Part shown: one piece after another, positions 33 to 11,356 of the stretch
Position numbering within the stretch: position 1 is the stretch's first letter
Layout: the number at the start of each line of letters is the position of its first letter
Virus record (IMG/VR): IMGVR_UViG_3300031993_000051
Strand: one strand, 5' to 3'
DNA from: a virus
Lineage: Duplodnaviria > Heunggongvirae > Uroviricota > Caudoviricetes
DNA length: 11,490 bases
Made by a program: the position numbers and the translations under genes
The notes under the pieces: generated by a model
What the model was told of the DNA's origin: nothing
The model's input: only the letters and a program-made list of their open reading frames with translations
Databases searched by the model: none

Positions 33-845
33 TCATTCTAGTATTTCTTTAAATACTTTGTAATTAGTATCATCCTTTCCACAATAGACAGCAAATTCAA
101 TATTCTTGAAGAAGTATTTTCCGAGTTCCAAAGCTTTTTTATAAGCCTTAGCTACGATTTCAGGTGGGTTTTTGAATGCTCCACAACCGAATGCGCCAAG
201 AATAATTGTTTCATCACCATGAGATGCAGCTAAGTTAAAAATATGAACTGCTCTGCGGAAATGAATATTAAACAATTCTTCATCAGTAACGTTTGGTTTT
301 TCACCACGTTCATGGTTGTAAGCGTTTGCAGGTGTTTCACGAAGATTAGGTGCTGCACAAGTAATTACATCTACAGAGAATGGACGATACAATAAGTTAT
401 AATTGTCCGATTTGATAATTTGAATATTGGGTGTGTAAATTGCATCATTGTTATGAAGTGCATTCCCATATTCTTTATGTGGTTTATAAAAGATTTCGTC
501 AAACTTCGGGTCAGACAAAACATTATAAAGTGTAGAACAACGACAAAGACATTCTTCTTGTGCATTAGAACCCTTTGTTACACCGCCACCAGGATTTGTA
601 GCAGAAGCAAAATTGAGAACTGCTACCTTACCAGTATATTTTCTTGCCGCATCAAAAGAACTACTCTTAGTAACCTTGACAGTTCCTGGAGTTTTGTTCT
701 CACAGAAAAAGTCAATCGTCATATCATCGGCAAGAAACTCCGAATTTTCAATCGAATACTTAATAGAATTCTGTAAGGTTTTATCCTTACTGATTAATTC
801 TTGAGTATGATTAAAAATTTTAATATTTTCTTCTTTACTAGCCAT
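33..845 (-). CDS. Bacterial-type poly(ADP-ribose) glycohydrolase / macrodomain protein (TIGR02452 / DUF2263-like)
   Basis: 270 aa with VAVLNFASATNPGGGVTKGSNAQEECLCRCSTLY (GGG-X6-8-QEE PARG signature), DVITCAAPN and ILGAFGCGAFKNPP. Confidence 0.9.
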   Translation of the reverse strand: MASKEENIKIFNHTQELISKDKTLQNSIKYSIENSEFLADDMTIDFFCENKTPGTVKVTKSSSFDAARKYTGKVAVLNFASATNPGGGVTKGSNAQEECLCRCSTLYNVLSDPKFDEIFYKPHKEYGNALHNNDAIYTPNIQIIKSDNYNLLYRPFSVDVITCAAPNLRETPANAYNHERGEKPNVTDEELFNIHFRRAVHIFNLAASHGDETIILGAFGCGAFKNPPEIVAKAYKKALELGKYFFKNIEFAVYCGKDDTNYKVFKEILE

Positions 846-1229: not shown

Positions 1230-1880
1230 TTAGACACCCTTGTAAGCTTTGACGACTTCTTCGAATTCAGTGTCGAGAGCGACAGTTTCGATAGTCTGAG
1301 TGCCCTTACCACCCTTACCGGTGATTTCGGCAATTTCCTGCTTAGCTTCGATGTGGAACTGAGTGGTCTTGACTTCGCTTTCGATTTCAGCAATCATAGC
1401 GTTGCAATCGATACCGAAATCGCCAATCTTGTTGCGATCGCACATCTTGAGTGTATCGATCTGGACCTGGAGAGCAGTGAGCTTAGCTTCGATGAGAGCC
1501 TTGTTGGTGTCGATGTTCTTGAGAGTGTCGCGAACCTGGACACACTGCTTTTCTGTGTTCTGCCAAGCAGTTTCGATAGTGTCACGAGCAGTCTTCATGC
1601 CCTTGTAAACAATATACTTAATCTTAGCTTCATCGAGCTTGTCAGCAGCGATGAGAGATTCGTAGACACGCTTGCTAGTAGCGGTCTTTTCGTCGAGTTC
1701 CTCGAACTTGGCCTTGAGTTCCTTAGCGTTGACCAGCATATCTTCAGCCGACTTGATATACTGAGCGGCATTCTTATTATACTGATAACGGATTTCCTCA
1801 ATCTTATCCTTGGTGGAGATGAGGCCTTCGAGACCACGCTGAGCCTTGTGAGCGAAGATTTTGAAGATATTGAAAGACAT
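1230..1880 (-). CDS. PspA/IM30(Vipp1)-like coiled-coil protein
   Basis: 216 aa; N-terminal amphipathic segment (MSFNIFKIF), long heptad-rich helices and a C-terminal LDTEFEE match PspA size and layout; AAGGA RBS; strongly biased codons. The family call rests on pattern resemblance only. Confidence 0.55.
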   Translation of the reverse strand: MSFNIFKIFAHKAQRGLEGLISTKDKIEEIRYQYNKNAAQYIKSAEDMLVNAKELKAKFEELDEKTATSKRVYESLIAADKLDEAKIKYIVYKGMKTARDTIETAWQNTEKQCVQVRDTLKNIDTNKALIEAKLTALQVQIDTLKMCDRNKIGDFGIDCNAMIAEIESEVKTTQFHIEAKQEIAEITGKGGKGTQTIETVALDTEFEEVVKAYKGV

Positions 1881-2957: not shown

Positions 2958-3539
2958 TCAATCATCTAGTAATTTATTAAATTCATTAATCATTCCTCGT
3001 TCAGGAGTTTTTGGTTTATAAATTGTCTTACTTGCAAGGTAATCAATAAAATGACCACAAAGATGGAATATACCAATAATAGAAGAAACTACTCCCAAAA
3101 CGATTAAGCCCGGAATAATGGCAAATGATAAAATTAAAAAACTCCAGTAACAAATTCTAAGTTTAATAGATGCTGCAGTTCCATCTTTAATAGTTTGCCA
3201 ATCATCGACTGGTCTATAATCTGTATCATCTCTTAATAATTTCTGTTTTTCTTTATATTCCCAACTCCAATCATTATAATTATCAGCAGTAATAGCCATC
3301 ATAAGAAAAGAAAATGCACAAGAACATAATATTGTTACATATGGCCATATCATTCCGTTTCTTTTGAAATAAAACCAAAAATTATTTTGAATAATATTTG
3401 TATTTGATTCCAAAATACCGGCGATTGACATGACTACCATGAAACAACAAAATATTATTGCAACGCTTTGAAGCAAACACATATACCATTCGCCCCAAGC
3501 ATCTCCATTTAAAAGTGCCTTATTAATTTTTCTTACCAT
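2958..3539 (-). CDS. Multi-pass membrane protein (about 3 TM), member of a local paralog family
   Basis: 193 aa, three hydrophobic segments, C-terminal MINEFNKLL motif; start overlaps the upstream stop. Confidence 0.8.
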   Translation of the reverse strand: MVRKINKALLNGDAWGEWYMCLLQSVAIIFCCFMVVMSIAGILESNTNIIQNNFWFYFKRNGMIWPYVTILCSCAFSFLMMAITADNYNDWSWEYKEKQKLLRDDTDYRPVDDWQTIKDGTAASIKLRICYWSFLILSFAIIPGLIVLGVVSSIIGIFHLCGHFIDYLASKTIYKPKTPERGMINEFNKLLDD

Positions 3540-4078
3540 GGTTCTGTCCCCACTAGTTTATTATATTCGTCAATAATAGTTTTCTTGTATTTTTCTGGAG
3601 ATTTCTTCCTATAACTGTTAAGCATATTACTAACAGATAGTTTATTATGGAATGCTATAGCACATTCACACAAGAAAGCGAAGAATCTTGCAGAATTCGT
3701 AACAATAACTAATATAATTGCAATAGGTGCAAATAAAATACTTCCACCAAACAAGATATTACAACCAAGATAGAAAATACTTTCAAAATATGATTTTTCA
3801 TCGTGATTATAATAATAATCTCTATGTTTGTCTATTGCAAACATTAAACAGATATCACCAACAATAAACAGAATAATAGGTAATACAATAGCCCACCAAT
3901 GTTCATGCAAAAAATTGTGCATAACGATAGTGCTTTGCCATGCATTTCGTTGTAAATTACCAAAACCATTAACAAGGAGGTAAATTGCTGCAACGACTTG
4001 GAAAATTACTTCAATCGAAATAACTCCAACCCACCATTCTTGACCTTTAAAAAAGTAATCAGATAAAAACTTCTTCAT
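3533..4078 (-). CDS. Multi-pass membrane protein (about 3 TM), member of a local paralog family
   Basis: 181 aa, AAGGAG RBS, three hydrophobic segments, C-terminal IIDEYNKLV motif. Confidence 0.8.
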   Translation of the reverse strand: MKKFLSDYFFKGQEWWVGVISIEVIFQVVAAIYLLVNGFGNLQRNAWQSTIVMHNFLHEHWWAIVLPIILFIVGDICLMFAIDKHRDYYYNHDEKSYFESIFYLGCNILFGGSILFAPIAIILVIVTNSARFFAFLCECAIAFHNKLSVSNMLNSYRKKSPEKYKKTIIDEYNKLVGTEPW

Positions 4079-4087
4079 ATATTCTCC

Positions 4088-4393
4088 TTATTTAAATACC
4101 ATTGGAACGGCAGACATTGGAAGCGGTTTATTAGGAATTGCTTTACAACATTGCTTTGATCGTGGCGTATATGATGAACGAGTGTTTTCTGCAGCTAAAT
4201 GACCTTTGTATTCCAGAATACTTTGTTCATATAACTTAGCACGTTTTTCAACCATGATATTATGATTTGCTTTATTAAATTTGACATCCATAGCAAAGTA
4301 AGTTATTAATAATGCAACGAAAAGAACTGCTCCGACAATCGATGTTACTGCATAGCAATCATCATAATTTAATCTATGATTTTTTGTTCTCAT
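4088..4393 (-). CDS. Single-pass membrane hypothetical protein
   Basis: 101 aa, one TM (AVTSIVGAVLFVALLITYFAM), AAGGAG upstream. Confidence 0.7.
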   Translation of the reverse strand: MRTKNHRLNYDDCYAVTSIVGAVLFVALLITYFAMDVKFNKANHNIMVEKRAKLYEQSILEYKGHLAAENTRSSYTPRSKQCCKAIPNKPLPMSAVPMVFK

Positions 4394-4396
4394 GGT

Positions 4397-4909
4397 TTAG
4401 TTTCTCCTTAAATGGTCGTTAAGATTACTGATAACGTTAGGAAGTATTCTACTAACTCTATCATTAATGTTAGTCATTGCTTCAATCTTTTTCTCTTTAT
4501 GGTTTTTTGGGAACATGAAAATAAAAGTTAATGTATCTATTATCGGTAAAATATAATACCAATAACTACTAGAATTTGACGATACAATAGCACTTATAAT
4601 TCCGACCAAAAACAGATAAGCAGCAACGATTAAAAGTCTATTAATCCACTGTAAAATAGTTGGATTAGTATCTTGATATTCAATCATTTTTGGTGCATAG
4701 TATTTAGTATCAATCTGTTCAATATCATATGTACTCAAATGATATTTAGCATTAAGATACTTGTGTGTTTCTGGAATTCCTCCACACCAACAATGTGTTT
4801 CTTTTACTGGTTCTTTTACTGTTTTTGTTATAGTTTGTGATGGTATTCCCATGATTGCTAATACAATACAGAATACTATCACTAGTTCAGAGATGACTTT
4901 TATAAGCAT
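4397..4909 (-). CDS. Membrane hypothetical protein (about 3 hydrophobic segments, CWCG loop)
   Basis: 170 aa, AGGAG RBS, N-terminal signal/TM plus two C-terminal TM segments. Confidence 0.75.
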   Translation of the reverse strand: MLIKVISELVIVFCIVLAIMGIPSQTITKTVKEPVKETHCWCGGIPETHKYLNAKYHLSTYDIEQIDTKYYAPKMIEYQDTNPTILQWINRLLIVAAYLFLVGIISAIVSSNSSSYWYYILPIIDTLTFIFMFPKNHKEKKIEAMTNINDRVSRILPNVISNLNDHLRRN

Positions 4910-4926
4910 TGATATGCTCCTATGGT

Positions 4927-5448
4927 TTAGTTTTTAAGAAAGTTGTTATAAGTACTTATCATTTCTTTTTCTGTTTTTTCCCAAACAATCATTTTTTCTT
5001 TTGTTTTTCTTGGTGCGAATAACATAAAAAAATGTTCAAGACAGAAATTAACTGCATAGAATAAATACCTAGTGAAATCATAAAGAAGAATAAACGGTGC
5101 TACCATAAGCAATGCACCACTGCAAGTAGCAAATACCCAAAAATATCCAGCAACTAAGAATCTTCGGTCGTCATTACTTGTATACTGTGAATCAGCAAAT
5201 AATGTGAAAACGCCGAAAATAATAGAAATTATTACCATGATAAGTCCGATTAACCAAACTTTAGCACCTGGTGGAGCAACAAGTGAAAGATTACCCATTT
5301 CTTCTGGAGTTGTAGCAAAATAACCAACGCCAGTAATAACGCTAAAAATAACAATACACAGGACAGATAAAACTGTTAAAGCATATGAAAATTCATTATA
5401 ACTAGCGTCAATAATTGATTTACCAGTATCTTTGAGTAATTTAAACAT
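4927..5448 (-). CDS. Multi-pass membrane protein (about 3 TM), member of a local paralog family
   Basis: 173 aa, TAATG coupling to the upstream gene, C-terminal MISTYNNFL motif. Confidence 0.8.
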   Translation of the reverse strand: MFKLLKDTGKSIIDASYNEFSYALTVLSVLCIVIFSVITGVGYFATTPEEMGNLSLVAPPGAKVWLIGLIMVIISIIFGVFTLFADSQYTSNDDRRFLVAGYFWVFATCSGALLMVAPFILLYDFTRYLFYAVNFCLEHFFMLFAPRKTKEKMIVWEKTEKEMISTYNNFLKN

Positions 5449-5639: not shown

Positions 5640-6268
5640 TAGTAACCTCTGCACTTTTCTTTCATGAGAGAAATGAATACTTCATTAATAGGATCATTTG
5701 TTTTTCTGATAGTATCAGTTCTTCTTGGAGTTAAACGATATCGAGAACCTGTTGGTCTTTGAGTAGCAGTAATAATAGGTTGCTGTGTCTGTCTAGCAAT
5801 CTGACTAACAAGATCCATAGCTTCATGATAGCTTGTCAGAACATCTTTAGGACCATTATCAGTAGCTACAGTTTTAACAACCTTTACCTTATCATAAGCA
5901 GGTCTGAAATCACTAAATAAATCCTGTTCATCGATATACTTATCATATTCTTTATCAAATGTAGAAGCATTATCAAGAATAGATGGCTTACCAGTTCCAA
6001 GGAACCGATTGAGCTTATACCATACTTCTGGCAATTTCTTGTTATACTTGTTTACAAATTCGTCTTCCCTTTTCTTTCTGGTAGACCATTTACAAATATA
6101 AGCAAAGATTGTATTGACAATTAAACCGACAAACATCAGCGGAGCGATAAGAACGCAGGCAACCTTAGGGTCATCCTTAACATCAATCATTTTCTGGCTT
6201 TTTAAGAACCGAATGAGTAAACGACAGCCGATGTATGAGGCAATGTAGATTAGAAGTAATTTGAGCAT
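5639..6268 (-). CDS. Membrane-anchored hypothetical protein (2 N-terminal TM plus a soluble tail)
   Basis: 209 aa, AGGA RBS, first gene after the promoter at 6300..6328; N-terminus aligns with 848..1129. Confidence 0.8.
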   Translation of the reverse strand: MLKLLLIYIASYIGCRLLIRFLKSQKMIDVKDDPKVACVLIAPLMFVGLIVNTIFAYICKWSTRKKREDEFVNKYNKKLPEVWYKLNRFLGTGKPSILDNASTFDKEYDKYIDEQDLFSDFRPAYDKVKVVKTVATDNGPKDVLTSYHEAMDLVSQIARQTQQPIITATQRPTGSRYRLTPRRTDTIRKTNDPINEVFISLMKEKCRGY

Positions 6269-6299: not shown

Positions 6300-6328
6300 A
6301 ATATAGAAAAAAGAACCACTTTTGTAAA
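6300..6328 (-). promoter_or_regulatory. Early-type promoter TTTACA-17-TATATT
   Basis: -35 at 6328..6323, 17-nt spacer, -10 at 6305..6300. Confidence 0.8.
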
Positions 6329-6339
6329 TGGTTCTTTTT
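6307..6339 (-). terminator. Intrinsic terminator of pncB, overlapping the next promoter
   Basis: GAACCATTT-ACAA-AAGTGGTTC (6334..6313) followed by T6; the A5 on the other side could allow bidirectional function. Confidence 0.85.
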
Positions 6340-6368: not shown

Positions 6369-7652
6369 CTACGGTGTTTTAATCACGACCATTCCACCCT
6401 TCCACTGGTCAAGCGGAATATACTCAAATACGCTCTTAACGTATTCAACGTATGCCGGAGATTCGCACATATTCTTTTCAGGGCAATCGCTAAGCTTAAC
6501 GACATCTCTACCATTAACCTTAACAACCTTCATGACCATGGAAAGCGGCTTAATACCAGCAGTCTCAGTTACAAGATTTGCCATGAAATAAGTACCGATA
6601 CCGAAGCTGATCTTGATACGACCATTGAAATGCTGTGCAATCTTGATAGCCTTATCAACATCGAGAGAGTCAGACCAGCAACCAGTCTTAGTAGTCGGGT
6701 CAATACCGAGTGCCTTATAATGGGCAATCAACATTTCACCCCAGACAATCGGGTCACCAGAGTCATGACGACATCCGTCGAACAACTTTGCATAGAACTT
6801 ATCAAAGTCACGAAGGAACGGGATGAAACCAAAGTTATCAGACAATGCAATACCAAGATCGCCACGATATTCCTGGGTCCATGCATCAAATACAGCCTTC
6901 TGAGACTGACGAATAGGAACATCATCAAGACCCTGGAACAATGCATACATTTCATGTGCAAACGTTCCAATTGCCTTTACACCATATTTAATGGCGAAAT
7001 AAAGGTTAGAAGTTCCGACAAAGCACTTACAGTTCTTAGCCATATAACCAACTGCATAGTCCTGCCAAGCGAAAGAATGTCTACGGCGAGCACCAAAGTC
7101 AGCAAAACCGAACTTCAAGCCAGAATCGATTGCAGCATTAAACTTATCAACTGCTTCCTTAAGATTTTGCTTTGCCTTTTCAAAATCAAATTCAAACTGA
7201 CGGAGATAAAGTTCCTGGATGATTTCCATCACATAGATTTCAAACCAAGTAACCTTGAGCTGAGGACCTTCTGCTTCAATTTCAAGATCGTCACCACGAC
7301 GAGTAATCTTGATATACTTTCTCTTTAAACGGAAGTCTTCTAGCCAGTCAACATAGTCAGGCTTAATGTAATAAATCTTGGACAATGCATCAAGTTCAAA
7401 CGGTTGCCATCTAAGAGTACAAAGATGATCAACTTCACGGTTAACTGCATCAACCAAATAACCCAAATGAACATCCTTAGAGCGAAGCTTCCACTTCCAC
7501 TTAGCCCATTCATTTGGACGCTTATGAAGTAAACATTGTGTCATACTGACCTTATAAATGTCAGTATCACTCAAATAATTGATGATATACTTTTCTTCAT
7601 CAATCGGTTTATAATTCTTAATTTCGTCAATTTCTTTTTGAGAAAGTTCCAT
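6369..7652 (-). CDS. pncB: Nicotinate phosphoribosyltransferase (E. coli PncB-type NAPRT)
   Basis: 427 aa with DTDIYK, ADFGARRR, GTSN, GTFAHE (phospho-His motif), RHDSGDP, SDSLD, SFGIGT and VKLSD motifs; AAGGA RBS. Confidence 0.93.
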   Translation of the reverse strand: MELSQKEIDEIKNYKPIDEEKYIINYLSDTDIYKVSMTQCLLHKRPNEWAKWKWKLRSKDVHLGYLVDAVNREVDHLCTLRWQPFELDALSKIYYIKPDYVDWLEDFRLKRKYIKITRRGDDLEIEAEGPQLKVTWFEIYVMEIIQELYLRQFEFDFEKAKQNLKEAVDKFNAAIDSGLKFGFADFGARRRHSFAWQDYAVGYMAKNCKCFVGTSNLYFAIKYGVKAIGTFAHEMYALFQGLDDVPIRQSQKAVFDAWTQEYRGDLGIALSDNFGFIPFLRDFDKFYAKLFDGCRHDSGDPIVWGEMLIAHYKALGIDPTTKTGCWSDSLDVDKAIKIAQHFNGRIKISFGIGTYFMANLVTETAGIKPLSMVMKVVKVNGRDVVKLSDCPEKNMCESPAYVEYVKSVFEYIPLDQWKGGMVVIKTP

Positions 7653-7680
7653 TTTAATATCCTTTTTTAAATTTGACTAA

Positions 7681-7709
7681 AATATAGCAAAATAAAATGT
7701 ATTTGTAAA
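7681..7709 (-). promoter_or_regulatory. Early-type promoter of pncB, TTTACA-17-TATATT with extended TG
   Basis: -35 at 7709..7704, -10 at 7686..7681 preceded by TGC. Confidence 0.8.
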
Positions 7710-7718
7710 TGCTTTTAA

Positions 7719-7726
7719 TATAAATA
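7719..7726 (+). promoter_or_regulatory. T4-type late promoter box TATAAATA
   Basis: Exact T4 late consensus about 70 nt upstream of the only plus-strand gene. The region is AT-rich, so a chance match is possible. Confidence 0.6.
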
Positions 7727-7737
7727 ATATAAATTAC

Positions 7738-7761
7738 GGTTTCTTAGAGTTCCGAGAAACC
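7738..7761 (+). promoter_or_regulatory. 5' UTR stem-loop of the plus-strand gene
   Basis: GGTTTCT(T)-AGAGTTCC-(G)AGAAACC: 7 Watson-Crick pairs plus one G-U pair, no U-tract; lies between the late box and the RBS. Confidence 0.5.
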
Positions 7762-7794
7762 AAAGAAAATACAGAATTTAATAGAGGATTAGGT

Positions 7795-8346
7795 ATGAAT
7801 CTTAATGAAGCAAAGCAATTTCTTAAAAGACATGGCTTTATCGTAGAAAGAAAGGGTGATTTCGTTGATCCGTCAACAAGACCTGAATTTTATGACCCGG
7901 ATTACTATGCAGAAGATGGTTATGATGCTAGTAGTGAAGAAAGTGATTGTTCAAATTATGCTACCGAGGTTGAAAAATATTTAAAAACAAATTATCCTGA
8001 TAAAAAGGTCGAAGTTAATTATGATATTTCTGACGATGGAGAATATATTAAATATGAATGCGCTGTTGCTTTTATATTTGATCATCTTCCAACATTTGAT
8101 GAAGTAACTGACTGTGAAGATATTTCTTATGACATTGCAAATGATGTAGATGATTGTGGATGTCCATGGGATGATGGCGAAACTTTAATATATGCTGTTG
8201 TCAATGGAAAGAAACAAGATATATCTGATACTTATAATAAAAATCCAGAAGGCATAGAAAACGCTGAATATTTTGAAGTTGTTGAAATGTCTTATGGTAC
8301 AAAACGAATTCCTGAACCAGAAGATCCTCGTGAACCTGAATGGTAA
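7795..8346 (+). CDS. Highly acidic hypothetical protein; candidate late/virion-internal protein
   Basis: 183 aa, GAGG RBS, about 47 D/E versus about 17 K/R by hand count; own promoter and terminator. Confidence 0.85.
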   Translation: MNLNEAKQFLKRHGFIVERKGDFVDPSTRPEFYDPDYYAEDGYDASSEESDCSNYATEVEKYLKTNYPDKKVEVNYDISDDGEYIKYECAVAFIFDHLPTFDEVTDCEDISYDIANDVDDCGCPWDDGETLIYAVVNGKKQDISDTYNKNPEGIENAEYFEVVEMSYGTKRIPEPEDPREPEW

Positions 8347-8363
8347 TTTATTAACATGAAAAT

Positions 8364-8394
8364 AAAAAAGGATTGGATAAAACCAATCCTTTTT
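8364..8394. terminator. Bidirectional intrinsic terminator between convergent genes
   Basis: A6-GGATTGG-ATAAAA-CCAATCC-T5 between the stops at 8346 (+) and 8403 (-). Confidence 0.9.
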
Positions 8395-8402
8395 AAATAT
8401 TA

Positions 8403-8744
8403 TTAAAAACCATATTTAAGTTTTTGAACATAATAGTTCAGTGGTTTGTCATCTTCATTTGCTGCATTAACACATTTGTTATAACGAGTTTGATTGAAGT
8501 ATTTTGATCTTTCCTTGAAAATCATTTCGTGCATATCGTTCATCATTTTGTAACGGTGCATCATGAATTCATTAACAAGTTTTTCTGATGTAACAATATA
8601 ATAATTAAGTGACTTTTTTAAATTATTTTGGTCTACTGCTTTAATATAAGTAATGCATTCATCATAACGGCCAGAAGCAAGAAACTTGCTAATATCTGCC
8701 ATAACTTTTAAATCAGGTGGGAAAAGTTTTAGAAAGAATTTCAT
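8403..8744 (-). CDS. Hypothetical helical protein
   Basis: Start reassigned to ATG 8744 (GGAG at 8754..8751); 113 aa, MKFFLKLFPP... Confidence 0.7.
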   Translation of the reverse strand: MKFFLKLFPPDLKVMADISKFLASGRYDECITYIKAVDQNNLKKSLNYYIVTSEKLVNEFMMHRYKMMNDMHEMIFKERSKYFNQTRYNKCVNAANEDDKPLNYYVQKLKYGF

Positions 8745-8763
8745 TTTAATCTCCAAAAAATGG

Positions 8764-8982
8764 TTATTCCTTAATATTGATTTTGATTTGAGAACCTAAT
8801 GTTCTGATCACAATATCTACGTTTTCTTTTGTAACAGGTTTATGTAATTTTCTCACTACATCTTCAGCCAGTGCATAAATCTGCTTTTCTGTCGCGCCAT
8901 CGGCAACAGCAAGCAGATCTTGCCATACATCTGCAAGGTCATTAAGACCTTCTATATTATATCTGTCTGGAATATTAGGCAT
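8764..8982 (-). CDS. Small hypothetical protein coupled to pncA
   Basis: 72 aa; start overlaps the 3' end of pncA by 8 nt. Confidence 0.7.
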   Translation of the reverse strand: MPNIPDRYNIEGLNDLADVWQDLLAVADGATEKQIYALAEDVVRKLHKPVTKENVDIVIRTLGSQIKINIKE

Positions 8983-9562
8983 TGATTACATCAATCTGTT
9001 GACGCTGGAGACAGAGAATTGCAGCCTTCTGACCTTCTTCATCCAAATCAGCAATGCAGCTTGCATCGACCGTAATCTTCATATTCGGGAATGCAGCTCT
9101 GAGAATAACTGCGTTCGCAAGAACACAAATCGTGCTTACGAAACCCCAAATTTCAATTTCGTCGAATTCAATACCGAGATTTCTGATATATTCAGGAAGA
9201 TCGAGCTTACCGAATGTATACTTATCGACAGAATAGAAATTGTGCTTACCATCTTGGTTCTTCTTCTGAAGTTCATCAAGAATAGTCTTTTCAATTTCCC
9301 AACCATCGGTCAGCTTAATGCAGTGCGGAACTGGAAGCTTCTGACCTTCCAATGTTTCCTCATACGGCTTGCCTTCCATTGGAGGCCAACCAGTAGTAAC
9401 CTGCATCTTGTTAAAGTGAGTATCATGTGTTGCAATGATAGCACCATCCCAGTGCTTAATCTTGTTAACAATATTAGGAACCTTCGCCTGTGCGAATGGG
9501 TTTGCGAGAGCACCAGTAATAAAGTCTACCTGTGCATCAACTAATAAGCCGAGTTTTGCCAT
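8975..9562 (-). CDS. pncA: Nicotinamidase (isochorismatase/cysteine hydrolase family)
   Basis: 195 aa; catalytic Asp (LVDAQVDFITGAL), Lys (DKYTFG) and Cys (GFVSTICV); metal ligands THDTH and PHC with downstream GW; GAGG RBS. Proximity to pncB supports the substrate call. Confidence 0.85.
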   Translation of the reverse strand: MAKLGLLVDAQVDFITGALANPFAQAKVPNIVNKIKHWDGAIIATHDTHFNKMQVTTGWPPMEGKPYEETLEGQKLPVPHCIKLTDGWEIEKTILDELQKKNQDGKHNFYSVDKYTFGKLDLPEYIRNLGIEFDEIEIWGFVSTICVLANAVILRAAFPNMKITVDASCIADLDEEGQKAAILCLQRQQIDVINA

Positions 9563-9588: not shown

Positions 9589-9617
9589 AATTTAGTAAAT
9601 TTTTTTGTGTTTGTAAA
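9589..9617 (-). promoter_or_regulatory. Internal early-type promoter for pncA, TTTACA-17-TAAATT
   Basis: -35 at 9617..9612 (TTTACAA, as in the other copies), variant -10 at 9594..9589. Confidence 0.55.
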
Positions 9618-9622
9618 TATGT

Positions 9623-10267
9623 TTATTTATTTTCAGCTTCCTTATAAAGCTTTAAAAATTCTCTTGAAATAAAATTCGTATGAATTCGTTTTTCTTCAAA
9701 AGGTTTGTCAGGTCCATGAACTGCGACATGCATGTTATATGCCAATCTTCGCATACATTGTAAACCTTCTTTGTCATGTTCGAGTTCTTCCGGGAAATCT
9801 CCATGCACTTCATTCCAATACTGACTTCCTACGACAGTCATGGAATGCATAAGAAAATAAGAATTAAGATGAGCAAATGCTAGTTCATTACCTGCACGTC
9901 TCGAAACTGTTATTCCTGCTGCATACTTATTACGCATAACATTTGCGGCAGAATAAAATACACGAGACATAAAATTGGCAAGTTGACCAGTAATTCCAGC
10001 ATAATAAACTGGCGATGCAAAGATAAAACCATCGGCATTCTGTGCTTTTTCAATAAAGCGATTAACTAAATCGTTATCAAAAACGCAATGACCAAGCTTT
10101 TTATCTTTACAGACATTGCAACAAATGCAACCATTCATCTGTGGACCTAACCACATATTATCGATTACATTATCGCCGAGAATTTTAAATTCTTCTTCGA
10201 CTTCATGCAATGCCCTGGCAGTACAACCATCTCGGTGTGGACTACCATTTACCATCAAAATATTCAT
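9623..10267 (-). CDS. Iron-sulfur flavoprotein (Isf-like) / flavodoxin-family NAD(P)H-dependent FMN reductase
   Basis: 214 aa; NGSPHRDGCT FMN-binding loop, compact CxxCxxC...C motif (CICCNVCKDKKLGHC), ADGFIFASPVY, SRRAG, YWNEVHG. Confidence 0.85.
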   Translation of the reverse strand: MNILMVNGSPHRDGCTARALHEVEEEFKILGDNVIDNMWLGPQMNGCICCNVCKDKKLGHCVFDNDLVNRFIEKAQNADGFIFASPVYYAGITGQLANFMSRVFYSAANVMRNKYAAGITVSRRAGNELAFAHLNSYFLMHSMTVVGSQYWNEVHGDFPEELEHDKEGLQCMRRLAYNMHVAVHGPDKPFEEKRIHTNFISREFLKLYKEAENK

Positions 10268-11220
10268 TACTTTTCTGCCTCAAGTGCAATCAACGAGTTA
10301 CCACAAGTAATACGGTCTGCGTCTTCTTCATGCGACGGAATGAAAACGATAACCTGCCAACCTGCATCAACGAGCGGCTTTTCGAACTTTTCGTAAACGT
10401 CAAAATCAAATTCAGTAGTGAAGTTATTTACTGCTGCAGCTTCTGTTGCATGGATAGGAGTAATCTTGACAATGAAACGATCCTTGTCGAAATACTTGTC
10501 CATGAGAGCAGGGTCAAGATTGCACTTGCCAGTTGCTGCAAAGTTCAGAGTATACTTTCTACCAGCAGGAGGCGGAAGACGCTTTGCCAAATCCGAGATT
10601 TCCTGCAAGCTTAACGACTGGTTATTAAACATGTCGTTTCTATCAGCTTCATCAAGGGTATTGATAGAGAACTGAAGACCAATACCACCATTCCACTTTG
10701 CATCGTAACCAAGAGCACACCAGTCTTGGAGGAATGCTTCAAGCTTCTTATTGTTATTCGGAAGCATGGTAGAAACGACAGGATGATATTCCTTGAACCA
10801 GTTATTGGAAATATTACCAATATCACGAGCGACCTTAATTACGTTTGGATTCCAAGTAGGTTCGCCCATTCTTGCAAAGTGGACATTGAGTCTTTCACCT
10901 TGAGTGATCTTAGAGAATGCGATACCATTAACAATTTCGGACATCAATTCAAAGTAGGGGACATTTCCCTTGAAGCCGAACTTAGGACAGTCACAGAACT
11001 TACAGGATTCAAGACAACCCTTCTGGGTAGAAACCGTAACGACAAGCTTATCCGCTACATCGACGGGTTTGTGAACGACCTTTTCGATTCTTTTGGTATA
11101 GCCTAAGAAATCTGCCTTAATGTTATTTTCTTTACCATAATCGCCTACGTAAAGATACTCCAAGTTGAGGTCTGTGTCCGAGACAATCATGCCAGTGTGT
11201 GTTTGAGTTATAGTTCTCAT
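10267..11220 (-). CDS. RlmN/Cfr-like radical SAM enzyme, atypical
   Basis: 317 aa; STQKGCLESCKFC (CxxxCxxC at C69/C73/C76), RMGEP, VST, LQFSIN and C-terminal ITCG align with RlmN; lacks the RlmN N-terminal domain and the C118 equivalent; GGAG RBS. Confidence 0.8.
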   Translation of the reverse strand: MRTITQTHTGMIVSDTDLNLEYLYVGDYGKENNIKADFLGYTKRIEKVVHKPVDVADKLVVTVSTQKGCLESCKFCDCPKFGFKGNVPYFELMSEIVNGIAFSKITQGERLNVHFARMGEPTWNPNVIKVARDIGNISNNWFKEYHPVVSTMLPNNNKKLEAFLQDWCALGYDAKWNGGIGLQFSINTLDEADRNDMFNNQSLSLQEISDLAKRLPPPAGRKYTLNFAATGKCNLDPALMDKYFDKDRFIVKITPIHATEAAAVNNFTTEFDFDVYEKFEKPLVDAGWQVIVFIPSHEEDADRITCGNSLIALEAEK

Positions 11221-11321: not shown

Positions 11322-11350
11322 AATATAAAAAAACAGACCACTTTTGTAAG
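11322..11350 (-). promoter_or_regulatory. Early-type promoter CTTACA-17-TATATT
   Basis: -35 at 11350..11345, -10 at 11327..11322; shares the 13-bp ACCACTTTTGTAA (plus strand) with the copy at 6315..6327. Confidence 0.65.
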
Positions 11351-11356
11351 CGGTCC
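11327..11356 (-). terminator. Intrinsic terminator (candidate attenuator terminator)
   Basis: GGACCGCTT-ACAA-AAGTGGTCT (11356..11335) followed by GT7. Confidence 0.75.

What the first reader, a model, noticed from the sequence alone, without database searches (positions are those of the whole stretch)
6369..9562. Phage-encoded PncA + PncB: candidate deamidating NAD+ reconstitution pathway distinct from NARP1/NARP2
Seen: intact pncA (8975..9562) and pncB (6369..7652) lie 1.3 kb apart on the same strand, each behind its own early-type promoter. They are separated by two small ORFs and an oppositely oriented gene. Established: anti-phage NADases (Thoeris SIR2, DSR, SEFIR, TIR effectors, pAgo-associated SIR2/TIR) cleave NAD+ to nicotinamide + ADP-ribose. 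The described phage counter-pathways use Adps+Namat (NARP1) or Nampt+Nmnat (NARP2). PncA+PncB instead run nicotinamide -> nicotinate -> NaMN (Preiss-Handler route), which needs a NaMN adenylyltransferase and NadE. PncA would also remove nicotinamide, a feedback inhibitor of sirtuin-type enzymes. Inference: this may be a third route to rebuild NAD+ during infection. The adenylyltransferase and NadE steps are not in this window and must come from elsewhere in the genome or from the host.
Basis: partly seen in the sequence, partly recalled or inferred. Interest (0 to 1): 0.8.

Follow-up and report, generated by a model that had tools for sequence, protein, structure and literature searches.

The report
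Rumen jumbo-phage nicotinamide-to-NAD salvage genes
A giant rumen phage carries enzymes that turn nicotinamide back into the coenzyme NAD+ by way of nicotinic acid, two steps its probable host (Fibrobacter) appears to lack; such phage gene sets are already catalogued, and their proposed use against NAD-destroying bacterial defences is still untested.

Summary
Observation confirmed. pncB (6369-7652, -) passes NAPRTase cut-offs. pncA (8975-9562, -) keeps the nicotinamidase triad, metal ligands and fold. Both are under purifying selection. The contig is a 59-kb piece of a T4-like jumbo phage (about 420 kb).

The pathway is larger than the window. An ammonia-type nadE lies 651 bp past the window edge, and a PARG gene lies inside it. 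Close relatives add a NadD-Nudix fusion 8-18 kb upstream, beyond this contig's end. Other jumbo phages pack all four genes into one operon.

The kind is known: Li et al. 2024 (PMC11662467) reported phage Preiss-Handler clusters and proposed the counter-defence role, untested. The name NARP3 is already taken. This scan has noted such sets on much other DNA (362 findings).

Two points go further. (1) Near-identical phages fill the same pncB slot with a 36%-identical allele from another lineage. (2) The probable host genus, Fibrobacter (no CRISPR proof), has NadC/NadD/NadE but no PncB/NAMPT in 100 genomes and rarely PncA; about 10% carry SIR2-type NADases.

Most likely: phage-supplied deamidating NAD+ salvage, plausibly counter-defence.

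The parts
8975..9562 (-). pncA, nicotinamidase, 195 aa (nicotinamide to nicotinate plus ammonia)
   Evidence: PF00857; triad D9/K114/C146 and metal ligands D47/H49/E72/H80 conserved; nicotinamidases are the top PDB sequence and fold hits; dN/dS 0.01-0.07 in close pairs
9589..9617 (-). weak sigma-70-like promoter site before pncA (TTTACA-17-TAAATT)
   Evidence: kept in L040, L012, L013, absent in L015
6369..7652 (-). pncB, nicotinate phosphoribosyltransferase, 427 aa ('allele 1')
   Evidence: PRK05321 and TIGR01514 above cut-off; full-length match to solved NAPRTases, E 1e-87; motifs at D29-K34, D185-R191, G229-E234 (H233), R295-P301 and dN/dS 0.03-0.07
7681..7709 (-). phage-consensus sigma-70-type promoter before pncB (TTTACA-17-TATATT, TG extension)
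7795..8346 (+). 183-aa acidic ORF, an unrelated insert behind a T4-late-type TATAAATA (7719-7726); not part of the pathway
   Evidence: absent in near-identical phage L040, where the 117-aa gene runs straight into pncB; an RNA-library contig joins 7658 to 8386; 87% identical copy near pncB in L005
8403..8982 (-). 72-aa (8764-8982) and 117-aa (8403-8756) ORFs of unknown function, followed by a bidirectional terminator at 8365-8394
   Evidence: no family hits; kept in L012, L013, L040; the 72-aa ORF is missing in L014/L015; terminator
33..845 (-). microbial-type PARG (TIGR02452), 270 aa; releases ADP-ribose; loosely linked. nadE (248 aa, no glutaminase domain) follows on the same strand at contig 12791-13537, 651-1397 bp before window base 1
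   Evidence: PF10021, TIGR02452; nadE PF02540 and TIGR00552 above cut-off; PARG sits between pncA and pncB in L026 and near pncB in L019 and L186

Best explanation
pncA and pncB are the first two steps of a phage-encoded deamidating NAD+ salvage pathway spread over about 20 kb of a T4-like rumen jumbo phage. PncA hydrolyses nicotinamide to nicotinate. PncB joins nicotinate to PRPP to give NaMN. A NadD-type adenylyltransferase fused to an ADP-ribose-type Nudix domain (seen in relatives, inferred for this phage beyond the contig end) makes NaAD. The phage's ammonia-dependent NadE makes NAD+. The Nudix domain (with PARG upstream of it for bound ADP-ribose) would turn ADP-ribose into AMP and ribose-5-phosphate, which host PRPP synthetase can return as PRPP, so both products of NAD+ cleavage would be recovered. 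The probable host, Fibrobacter, makes NAD+ only de novo and has NadD and NadE, so PncA+PncB are the steps it lacks. Shown: gene identities, catalytic residues, purifying selection, co-occurrence, absence of PncB in the genus sample. Inferred: activities, flux, the host, early timing, and that the benefit is mainly survival of NADase-type immunity (my split: about 55% counter-defence, 45% general supply).
For: Family and residue tests. dN/dS far below 1 for pncA, pncB and nadE. nadE on the same contig and in 5 of 5 related records searched. NadD-Nudix in G001, G002, G008 and L186, and 3 bp upstream of a 94%-identical pncB in L006; its HxGH-like, SSSxVR and Nudix-box motifs are intact in 8 copies. 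Compact operons of all four steps in other large contigs: pncA-PARG-HNH-pncB-nadD-nadE, pncB-NadD/Nudix-pncA-nadE, the same set with one small extra gene, and pncA-nadE-x-nadD...pncB in a complete 254-kb phage. The pncB slot keeps a PncB even when the gene is replaced by a 36%-identical lineage. Genus of a Fibrobacter MAG: NAPRTase family 0 of 80 and 0 of 100 apart from one phage-like contig, though found in 17 other genomes of the phylum; PF00857 4 of 80; NadC 5 of 5, NadD-like 40 of 41; NadE-family hits in 61 of 61, mostly long glutamine-type frames. ThsA-, Dsr2- and Sir2-HerA-like SIR2 domains in about 10 of 101. NADAR or gp30.3 genes near the pathway in relatives. The PRPP-using NARP2 route does rescue phages (10.1101/2024.02.11.579819).
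Against: No activity or rescue data. NadD is not on this contig. The host is not proven: 655 Fibrobacter spacers gave no match above controls; support is a cadherin-like protein with homologues in 61 of 61 genus genomes (other genera not searched the same way) and a shared TATATTT -10 motif (small controls). In this phage the genes are scattered among unrelated genes and terminators, not an operon. Strong SIR2 NADase hits occur in only about a tenth of the presumed host genomes (TIR and other effectors not surveyed), while the pathway seems fixed in the phage lineage. The NadD domain is below the TIGR00482 cut-off, so NaMN specificity is unproven.
Confidence: 0.8

Rival explanations
1. General metabolic supply, not counter-defence. 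The genes let a 400-kb phage enlarge the NAD pool of a de-novo-only host from nicotinamide or nicotinate in rumen fluid, or recycle nicotinamide released by ordinary NAD-consuming enzymes.
For: The host sample lacks salvage. Strong SIR2 NADases are in a minority of host genomes. The route uses PRPP and, like NARP2, would run whether or not a defence fires. Li et al. describe host-phage complementarity.
Against: No NAD-dependent ligase or ART domain was found in the fragments (fragments are 8-40% complete and the ART search had no positive control). Coupling to an ADP-ribose Nudix domain, PARG and NADAR suggests handling of NAD+ cleavage products. All three tested phage NAD routes turned out to be anti-defence.
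Confidence: 0.4
2. pncB mosaicism is driven by homing endonucleases rather than by selection between alleles. Free-standing GIY-YIG/HNH genes cut near pncB and drag their own allele along.
For: Endonuclease genes flank pncB in L005, L007, L012, L013, L026 and L185. Allele 1 is 94-97% identical among phages whose PncA is only 48-58% identical.
Against: No endonuclease lies next to pncB in the window, L040, L015, L019, L006 or L186. This explains spread only, not retention: dN/dS stays at 0.03-0.07.
Confidence: 0.45
3. The 'PncB' is a NAMPT or Namat (NARP2/NARP1 type) and PncA is an unrelated amidase.
For: Weak hit to phrog_448, named nicotinamide phosphoribosyltransferase. PncA hits no NCBIfam nicotinamidase model and is only 20-26% identical to solved ones.
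Against: 451 versus 61 bits in favour of NAPRTase. All PDB sequence hits are NAPRTases. NadE, needed only for the deamidated route, recurs with it.
Confidence: 0.05
4. Bacterial chromosome with ordinary salvage genes.
For: A 99%-identical pncB lies on a contig filed in a Methanobrevibacter MAG.
Against: The record is viral with T4-type genes. The MAG contig is the same phage (92-97% nucleotide identity), and related contigs are binned into five unrelated taxa.
Confidence: 0.01

Closest known systems
Preiss-Handler clusters of 'NAD-jumbo phages' (Li et al. 2024, PMC11662467; e.g. Kuafu_71 pncB-nadD-nadE)
   Same: Gut/rumen jumbo phage; pncB and nadE (nadD in relatives); complementarity with a de-novo-only host and a counter-defence role were both proposed there, from sequence only.
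   Different: Here the genes are dispersed, the nicotinamidase is part of the set, and the adenylyltransferase of relatives is a NadD-Nudix fusion (the words Nudix, PARG and Fibrobacter do not occur in that paper's main text). Two distant pncB lineages alternate in one slot.
NARP2 (Nampt + Nmnat; Vibrio phage KVP40; 10.1101/2024.02.11.579819)
   Same: Starts from nicotinamide and PRPP; KVP40 NatV is also an adenylyltransferase-Nudix fusion.
   Different: Amidated two-step route through NMN. Here it is four steps through nicotinate, NaMN and NaAD, and the transferase domain scores best as NadD. NARP2 is experimentally shown; this is not.
NARP1 (Adps + Namat) and NARP3 (PnuC + NadR; PMC13464706)
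   Same: Phage routes that restore NAD+.
   Different: NARP1 joins ADPR-PP to nicotinamide; NARP3 imports nicotinamide riboside. No Prs/Adps-like gene in the fragments; no PnuC or NadR among the contig proteins scanned.
Bacterial PncA-PncB-NadD-NadE salvage (own knowledge)
   Same: Same enzyme families and order of steps.
   Different: Phage-borne. Allele 2 lies in one large clade with Lachnospiraceae-labelled PncBs; allele 1 groups with other large-contig phage copies.

Membership tests
Nicotinamidase PncA | Asp-Lys-Cys catalytic triad | tested here: met
   D9, K114, C146 conserved in at least 90% of 75 homologues
Nicotinamidase PncA | Asp-His-(Glu/His)-His metal site and nicotinamidase fold | tested here: met
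   D47, H49, E72, H80 invariant; top 9 Foldseek hits are nicotinamidases, TM up to 0.76; site geometry not inspected directly
Nicotinamidase PncA | hydrolyses nicotinamide | not testable with these tools
   needs an assay; other isochorismatase-family amidases score only slightly lower
NAPRTase PncB | passes the NAPRTase equivalog rather than NAMPT | tested here: met
   TIGR01514 381 bits against cut-off 269.55; phrog_448 61 bits
NAPRTase PncB | phospho-acceptor His and substrate-binding motifs | tested here: met
   H233 in the AHE motif, DFGxRRR and RHDSGDP align with P. aeruginosa 1yir; motif roles from own knowledge
NAD-jumbo phage, Preiss-Handler type | phage genome over 200 kb | tested here: inconclusive
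   59 kb at 14% CheckV completeness implies about 420 kb; relatives lie on 165-367 kb contigs; this genome is not complete
NAD-jumbo phage, Preiss-Handler type | pncB and nadE | tested here: met
NAD-jumbo phage, Preiss-Handler type | nadD | tested here: inconclusive
   not on this fragment; present in G008 (pncA 93% identical), G001, G002, L186, L006; both G000 and the near-identical L040 contig end before the syntenic place
NARP1 | Namat (NAMPT-like) enzyme | tested here: not met
   the PRTase is an NAPRTase
NARP1 | Adps (Prs-like) partner gene | tested here: inconclusive
   none in five fragmentary records
NARP2 | Nampt | tested here: not met
NARP2 | NMN adenylyltransferase of NadM type | tested here: not met
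   N-terminal domain of the relatives' fusion matches NadD models; NadM-Nudix models match only the Nudix half
NARP3 | PnuC + NadR two-gene cassette | tested here: not met
   no such Pfam hits among contig proteins; the genome is a fragment
NARP-type anti-defence (any) | restores NAD+ and rescues phage against NADase defences | not testable with these tools
   needs plaque and NAD+ assays; no paper testing this route found

The most novel reading that the evidence does not exclude
A fourth, deamidating NAD+-reconstitution route (PncA, PncB, NadD-Nudix, NadE) recovers both nicotinamide and ADP-ribose and lets rumen jumbo phages overcome Thoeris, DSR2 or Sir2-HerA in Fibrobacter, a host that cannot recycle nicotinamide itself. 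Selection is strong enough that pncB has been replaced in place by a distant lineage and swept between phage lineages.
Probability: 0.35. Interest if true: 0.68.

Novelty: new member of a known kind. Interest (0 to 1): 0.42.

Why it matters
The three phage NAD+ routes tested so far (NARP1-3) all counter bacterial immunity. The deamidating route is catalogued but untested, so any clean example is a ready experiment. This one is useful because, if the host is Fibrobacter, PncA+PncB are exactly the missing steps, which predicts that these two genes alone create a nicotinamide cycle in the infected cell. Two natural pncB alleles at 36% identity in one genomic slot give a built-in comparison. Fibrobacter is a main cellulose degrader of the rumen (own knowledge), and my search found no paper holding the terms Fibrobacter, rumen and jumbo phage together. 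The concept itself is not new, and the scan has met it many times.

Tried and rejected
CRISPR host test: 655 spacers from 44 loci of the Fibrobacter-labelled genus against 747 kb of phage DNA gave a best of 4 mismatches in AT-rich 25-26-mers, in line with shuffled controls. A DNA search of 101 genus genomes gave only PARG, GIY-YIG and terminator-like matches, no spacers. No Fibrobacter major-domain (PF09603) gene in the phage fragments.

NadD on this contig: none. NAD-dependent ligase, Prs and ART: none in five records. These are fragments, the ART search rang in no control, and Prs was missed even in the archaeal MAG, so absence is not shown.

Expression: contigs from four rumen RNA libraries (four studies) cover parts of pncA and pncB of related strains. 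Contigs cannot show strand or level and DNA may be present, so I do not count this as evidence of transcription.

Cultured or annotated phages: only 13 tblastn hits, all under 43% identity. Supplements of Li et al. are not held, so I could not check whether this phage family is in their tables.

The SIR2_2 count of 54 of 101 was rejected as a defence count: most are weak hits in one frame of about 330-370 aa per genome; only about 10 genomes have E below 1e-11. MAG labels (Methanobrevibacter, Prevotella, Clostridia, Rickettsiales) were rejected as host evidence because related phage contigs are binned into all of them. No complex prediction was run, since no binding is claimed.
Full report
What the DNA is. 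The window is bases 651-12140 (reverse) of a 59,078-bp linear virus record that CheckV% complete, implying about 420 kb. The contig carries gp23-like, gp32, anaerobic ribonucleotide reductase, RNA ligase and Hsp20 genes, so it is a T4-like jumbo phage. Related contigs occur in ruminant MAGs and rumen RNA libraries.

The observation. Both ORFs and the three genes between them are as described. PncB passes two curated NAPRTase models and only weakly hits the phage NAMPT family; its PDB relatives are all NAPRTases. PncA is a divergent isochorismatase-family protein with the full nicotinamidase triad and metal ligands and nicotinamidases as best profile and fold matches. Pairwise dN/dS is 0.01-0.07 for pncA in close pairs, 0.03-0.07 for pncB and 0.09-0.17 for nadE. 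A phage promoter motif (TTTACA or TTGACA, 17 bases, TATATT) is strongly over-represented and precedes pncB; a variant precedes pncA. It is host-sigma type rather than the T4-late TATAAATA enriched elsewhere in this phage family, so 'early' is a fair inference. Relatives often lack one or the other site and would read through from upstream.

The rest of the pathway. A 248-aa NadE without a glutaminase domain starts 651 bp beyond the window on the same strand, after a PARG gene at 33-845. No NadD is on the contig, which begins only 2.6 kb upstream of pncA. In G008 (pncA 93% identical, syntenic from the radical-SAM gene to nadE) a NadD-Nudix fusion ends 8.9 kb upstream of pncA. It is 8.2 kb upstream in L186, 13 and 18 kb in G002 and G001, and abuts pncB in L006. 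A near-identical phage contig (L040, 92-97% nucleotide identity) stops just short of the expected place. The N-terminal half scores best on NadD models (below cut-off) and the C-terminal half on the ADP-ribose pyrophosphatase half of NadM-Nudix; both motif sets are intact. More distant large contigs hold the same enzymes as operons or within about 10 kb, and a complete 254-kb phage has pncA-nadE-x-nadD...pncB. NADAR or gp30.3 genes are often near.

Mosaicism of pncB. L012, L013, L014 and L015 have 93-98% identical PncA and the same flanking genes, yet their pncB product is 36% identical to the window's. In L012 and L013 nucleotide similarity stops near contig 3750 and resumes at 5801. This second allele also passes NAPRTase cut-offs and falls in one large clade with Lachnospiraceae-labelled proteins; an AU test rejects a single clade for the two alleles (p 9e-6; quick tree, 49 selected rows, midpoint root). 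Conversely the window's allele is 94-97% identical in phages whose PncA is 48-58% identical, with dS 0.55-0.77 against 1.7-2.7 for pncA. So pncB has been both replaced in place and moved between lineages, while the function was kept. Free-standing endonuclease genes next to pncB in about half of the loci may drive this. The direction of replacement is not established.

Host. I found homologues of the phage's cadherin-like protein in 61 of 61 genomes of the genus of a Fibrobacter MAG (the tool does not name the genus, and I did not run the same search in other genera). TATATTT is the most strand-biased 7-mer upstream of genes in a complete genome of that genus (22 against 7), matching the phage's -10 box (small controls). 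CRISPR gave nothing. I put Fibrobacter at about 70%. In that genus the NAPRTase/NAMPT family was not found in 80 or 100 genomes, apart from one phage-like contig, although the same search finds it elsewhere in the phylum. Isochorismatase-family genes are in 4 of 80. NadC, NadD-like and NadE-family genes are near universal. About ten of 101 genomes have strong SIR2 domains resembling ThsA, Dsr2 or Sir2-HerA (domain only, system context not checked). Many of these genomes are incomplete MAGs.

Mechanism. Nicotinamide goes to nicotinate (PncA), NaMN (PncB, PRPP), NaAD (phage or host NadD) and NAD+ (phage NadE with ammonia, or host NadE). The fused Nudix domain would split ADP-ribose to AMP and ribose-5-phosphate for host Prs. 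This follows from family knowledge, not from assays. In a de-novo-only host, nicotinamide released by an NADase would be a dead end, which fits counter-defence. The same genes would equally let the phage draw on niacin in rumen fluid. I rate the pathway assignment 0.8 and, within it, counter-defence as the main benefit about 55%.

Comparison and novelty. Li et al. 2024 reported 174 NAD-jumbo phages, including pncB-nadD-nadE clusters, host complementarity, phage pncA, and the counter-defence hypothesis as needing verification. Iyer et al. 2022 predicted NAD salvage against NADases for NadV/NadM/NadR. NARP1 and NARP2 and NARP3 are chemically different and tested. I found no test of the deamidating route. 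The scan holds 362 notes with these words, and several describe the same set in other genomes. The finding is a new member of a known, untested kind; the allele exchange and the match to what Fibrobacter lacks are modest additions. Interest 0.42.

Noticed in passing
window 6369-7652 versus L012:2389-3627, L013:2618-3805, L015:11224-12447: In-place replacement of pncB by a 36%-identical allele among near-identical phages; GIY-YIG/HNH genes flank pncB in many relatives, and nadE in this contig (C1 13686-14519) and L005.
   Followed up: yes
L006:3746-4864, L043:6358-7464 (-), L027:11450-12577, L239:9241-10383: Recurrent NadD-type adenylyltransferase fused to an ADP-ribose-type Nudix domain, distinct from the known NadM-Nudix; substrate specificity unknown.
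   Followed up: partly
window 7719-8346 (+): 183-aa acidic ORF behind a T4-late-type TATAAATA, with the N-terminal tag seen on many small proteins of this phage; a variable insert absent in L040.
   Followed up: partly
window 6308-6339, 1174-1199, 11335-11356: Terminator hairpins whose loop holds the -35 box of the next promoter.
   Followed up: partly
L198-L215 (complete genome G064): TATATTT, often after TTTTGC, is the most strand-biased upstream 7-mer, and TATAAT is below shuffled expectation; possibly the Fibrobacter housekeeping -10 box, shared with the phage promoters.
   Followed up: partly
window 9623-10267 (-): Flavodoxin-like FMN reductase between the radical-SAM gene and pncA; cleanly absent in L040, so not part of the NAD set.
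   Followed up: partly
window 10267-11220 (-): RlmN/Cfr-like radical-SAM protein, phrog_24834, far below RlmN cut-offs.
   Followed up: no
window 2958-5448 (-): Run of small hydrophobic, membrane-protein-like ORFs that diverge quickly between relatives (40-60% identity in L015) and have no Pfam hit.
   Followed up: no
window 1230-1880 (-): 216-aa coiled-coil-like protein, 99-100% conserved in L014, L015 and L040, with the highest GC3 of the contig (0.58) and the deepest RNA-library contigs in runs X1, X2 and X8 (not a measure of expression); PspA-like by appearance only.
   Followed up: no
L030/L040 (G010), L031, L032/L042, L033, L034: Contigs of this phage family are binned into GTDB MAGs of five unrelated taxa, which creates false 'Methanobrevibacter pncB' records.
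   Followed up: partly
L019:3174-3989, L029:6678-7508, L186:2439-3257: Stand-alone HhH/BRCT proteins resembling the C-terminal part of NAD-dependent ligase lie near the NAD genes; no adenylation domain was found in the fragments searched.
   Followed up: partly
L004:8808-9932, L184:12633-13793, L185:12807-13907: Adenylosuccinate-synthetase-like gene directly upstream of pncB in several relatives.
   Followed up: no
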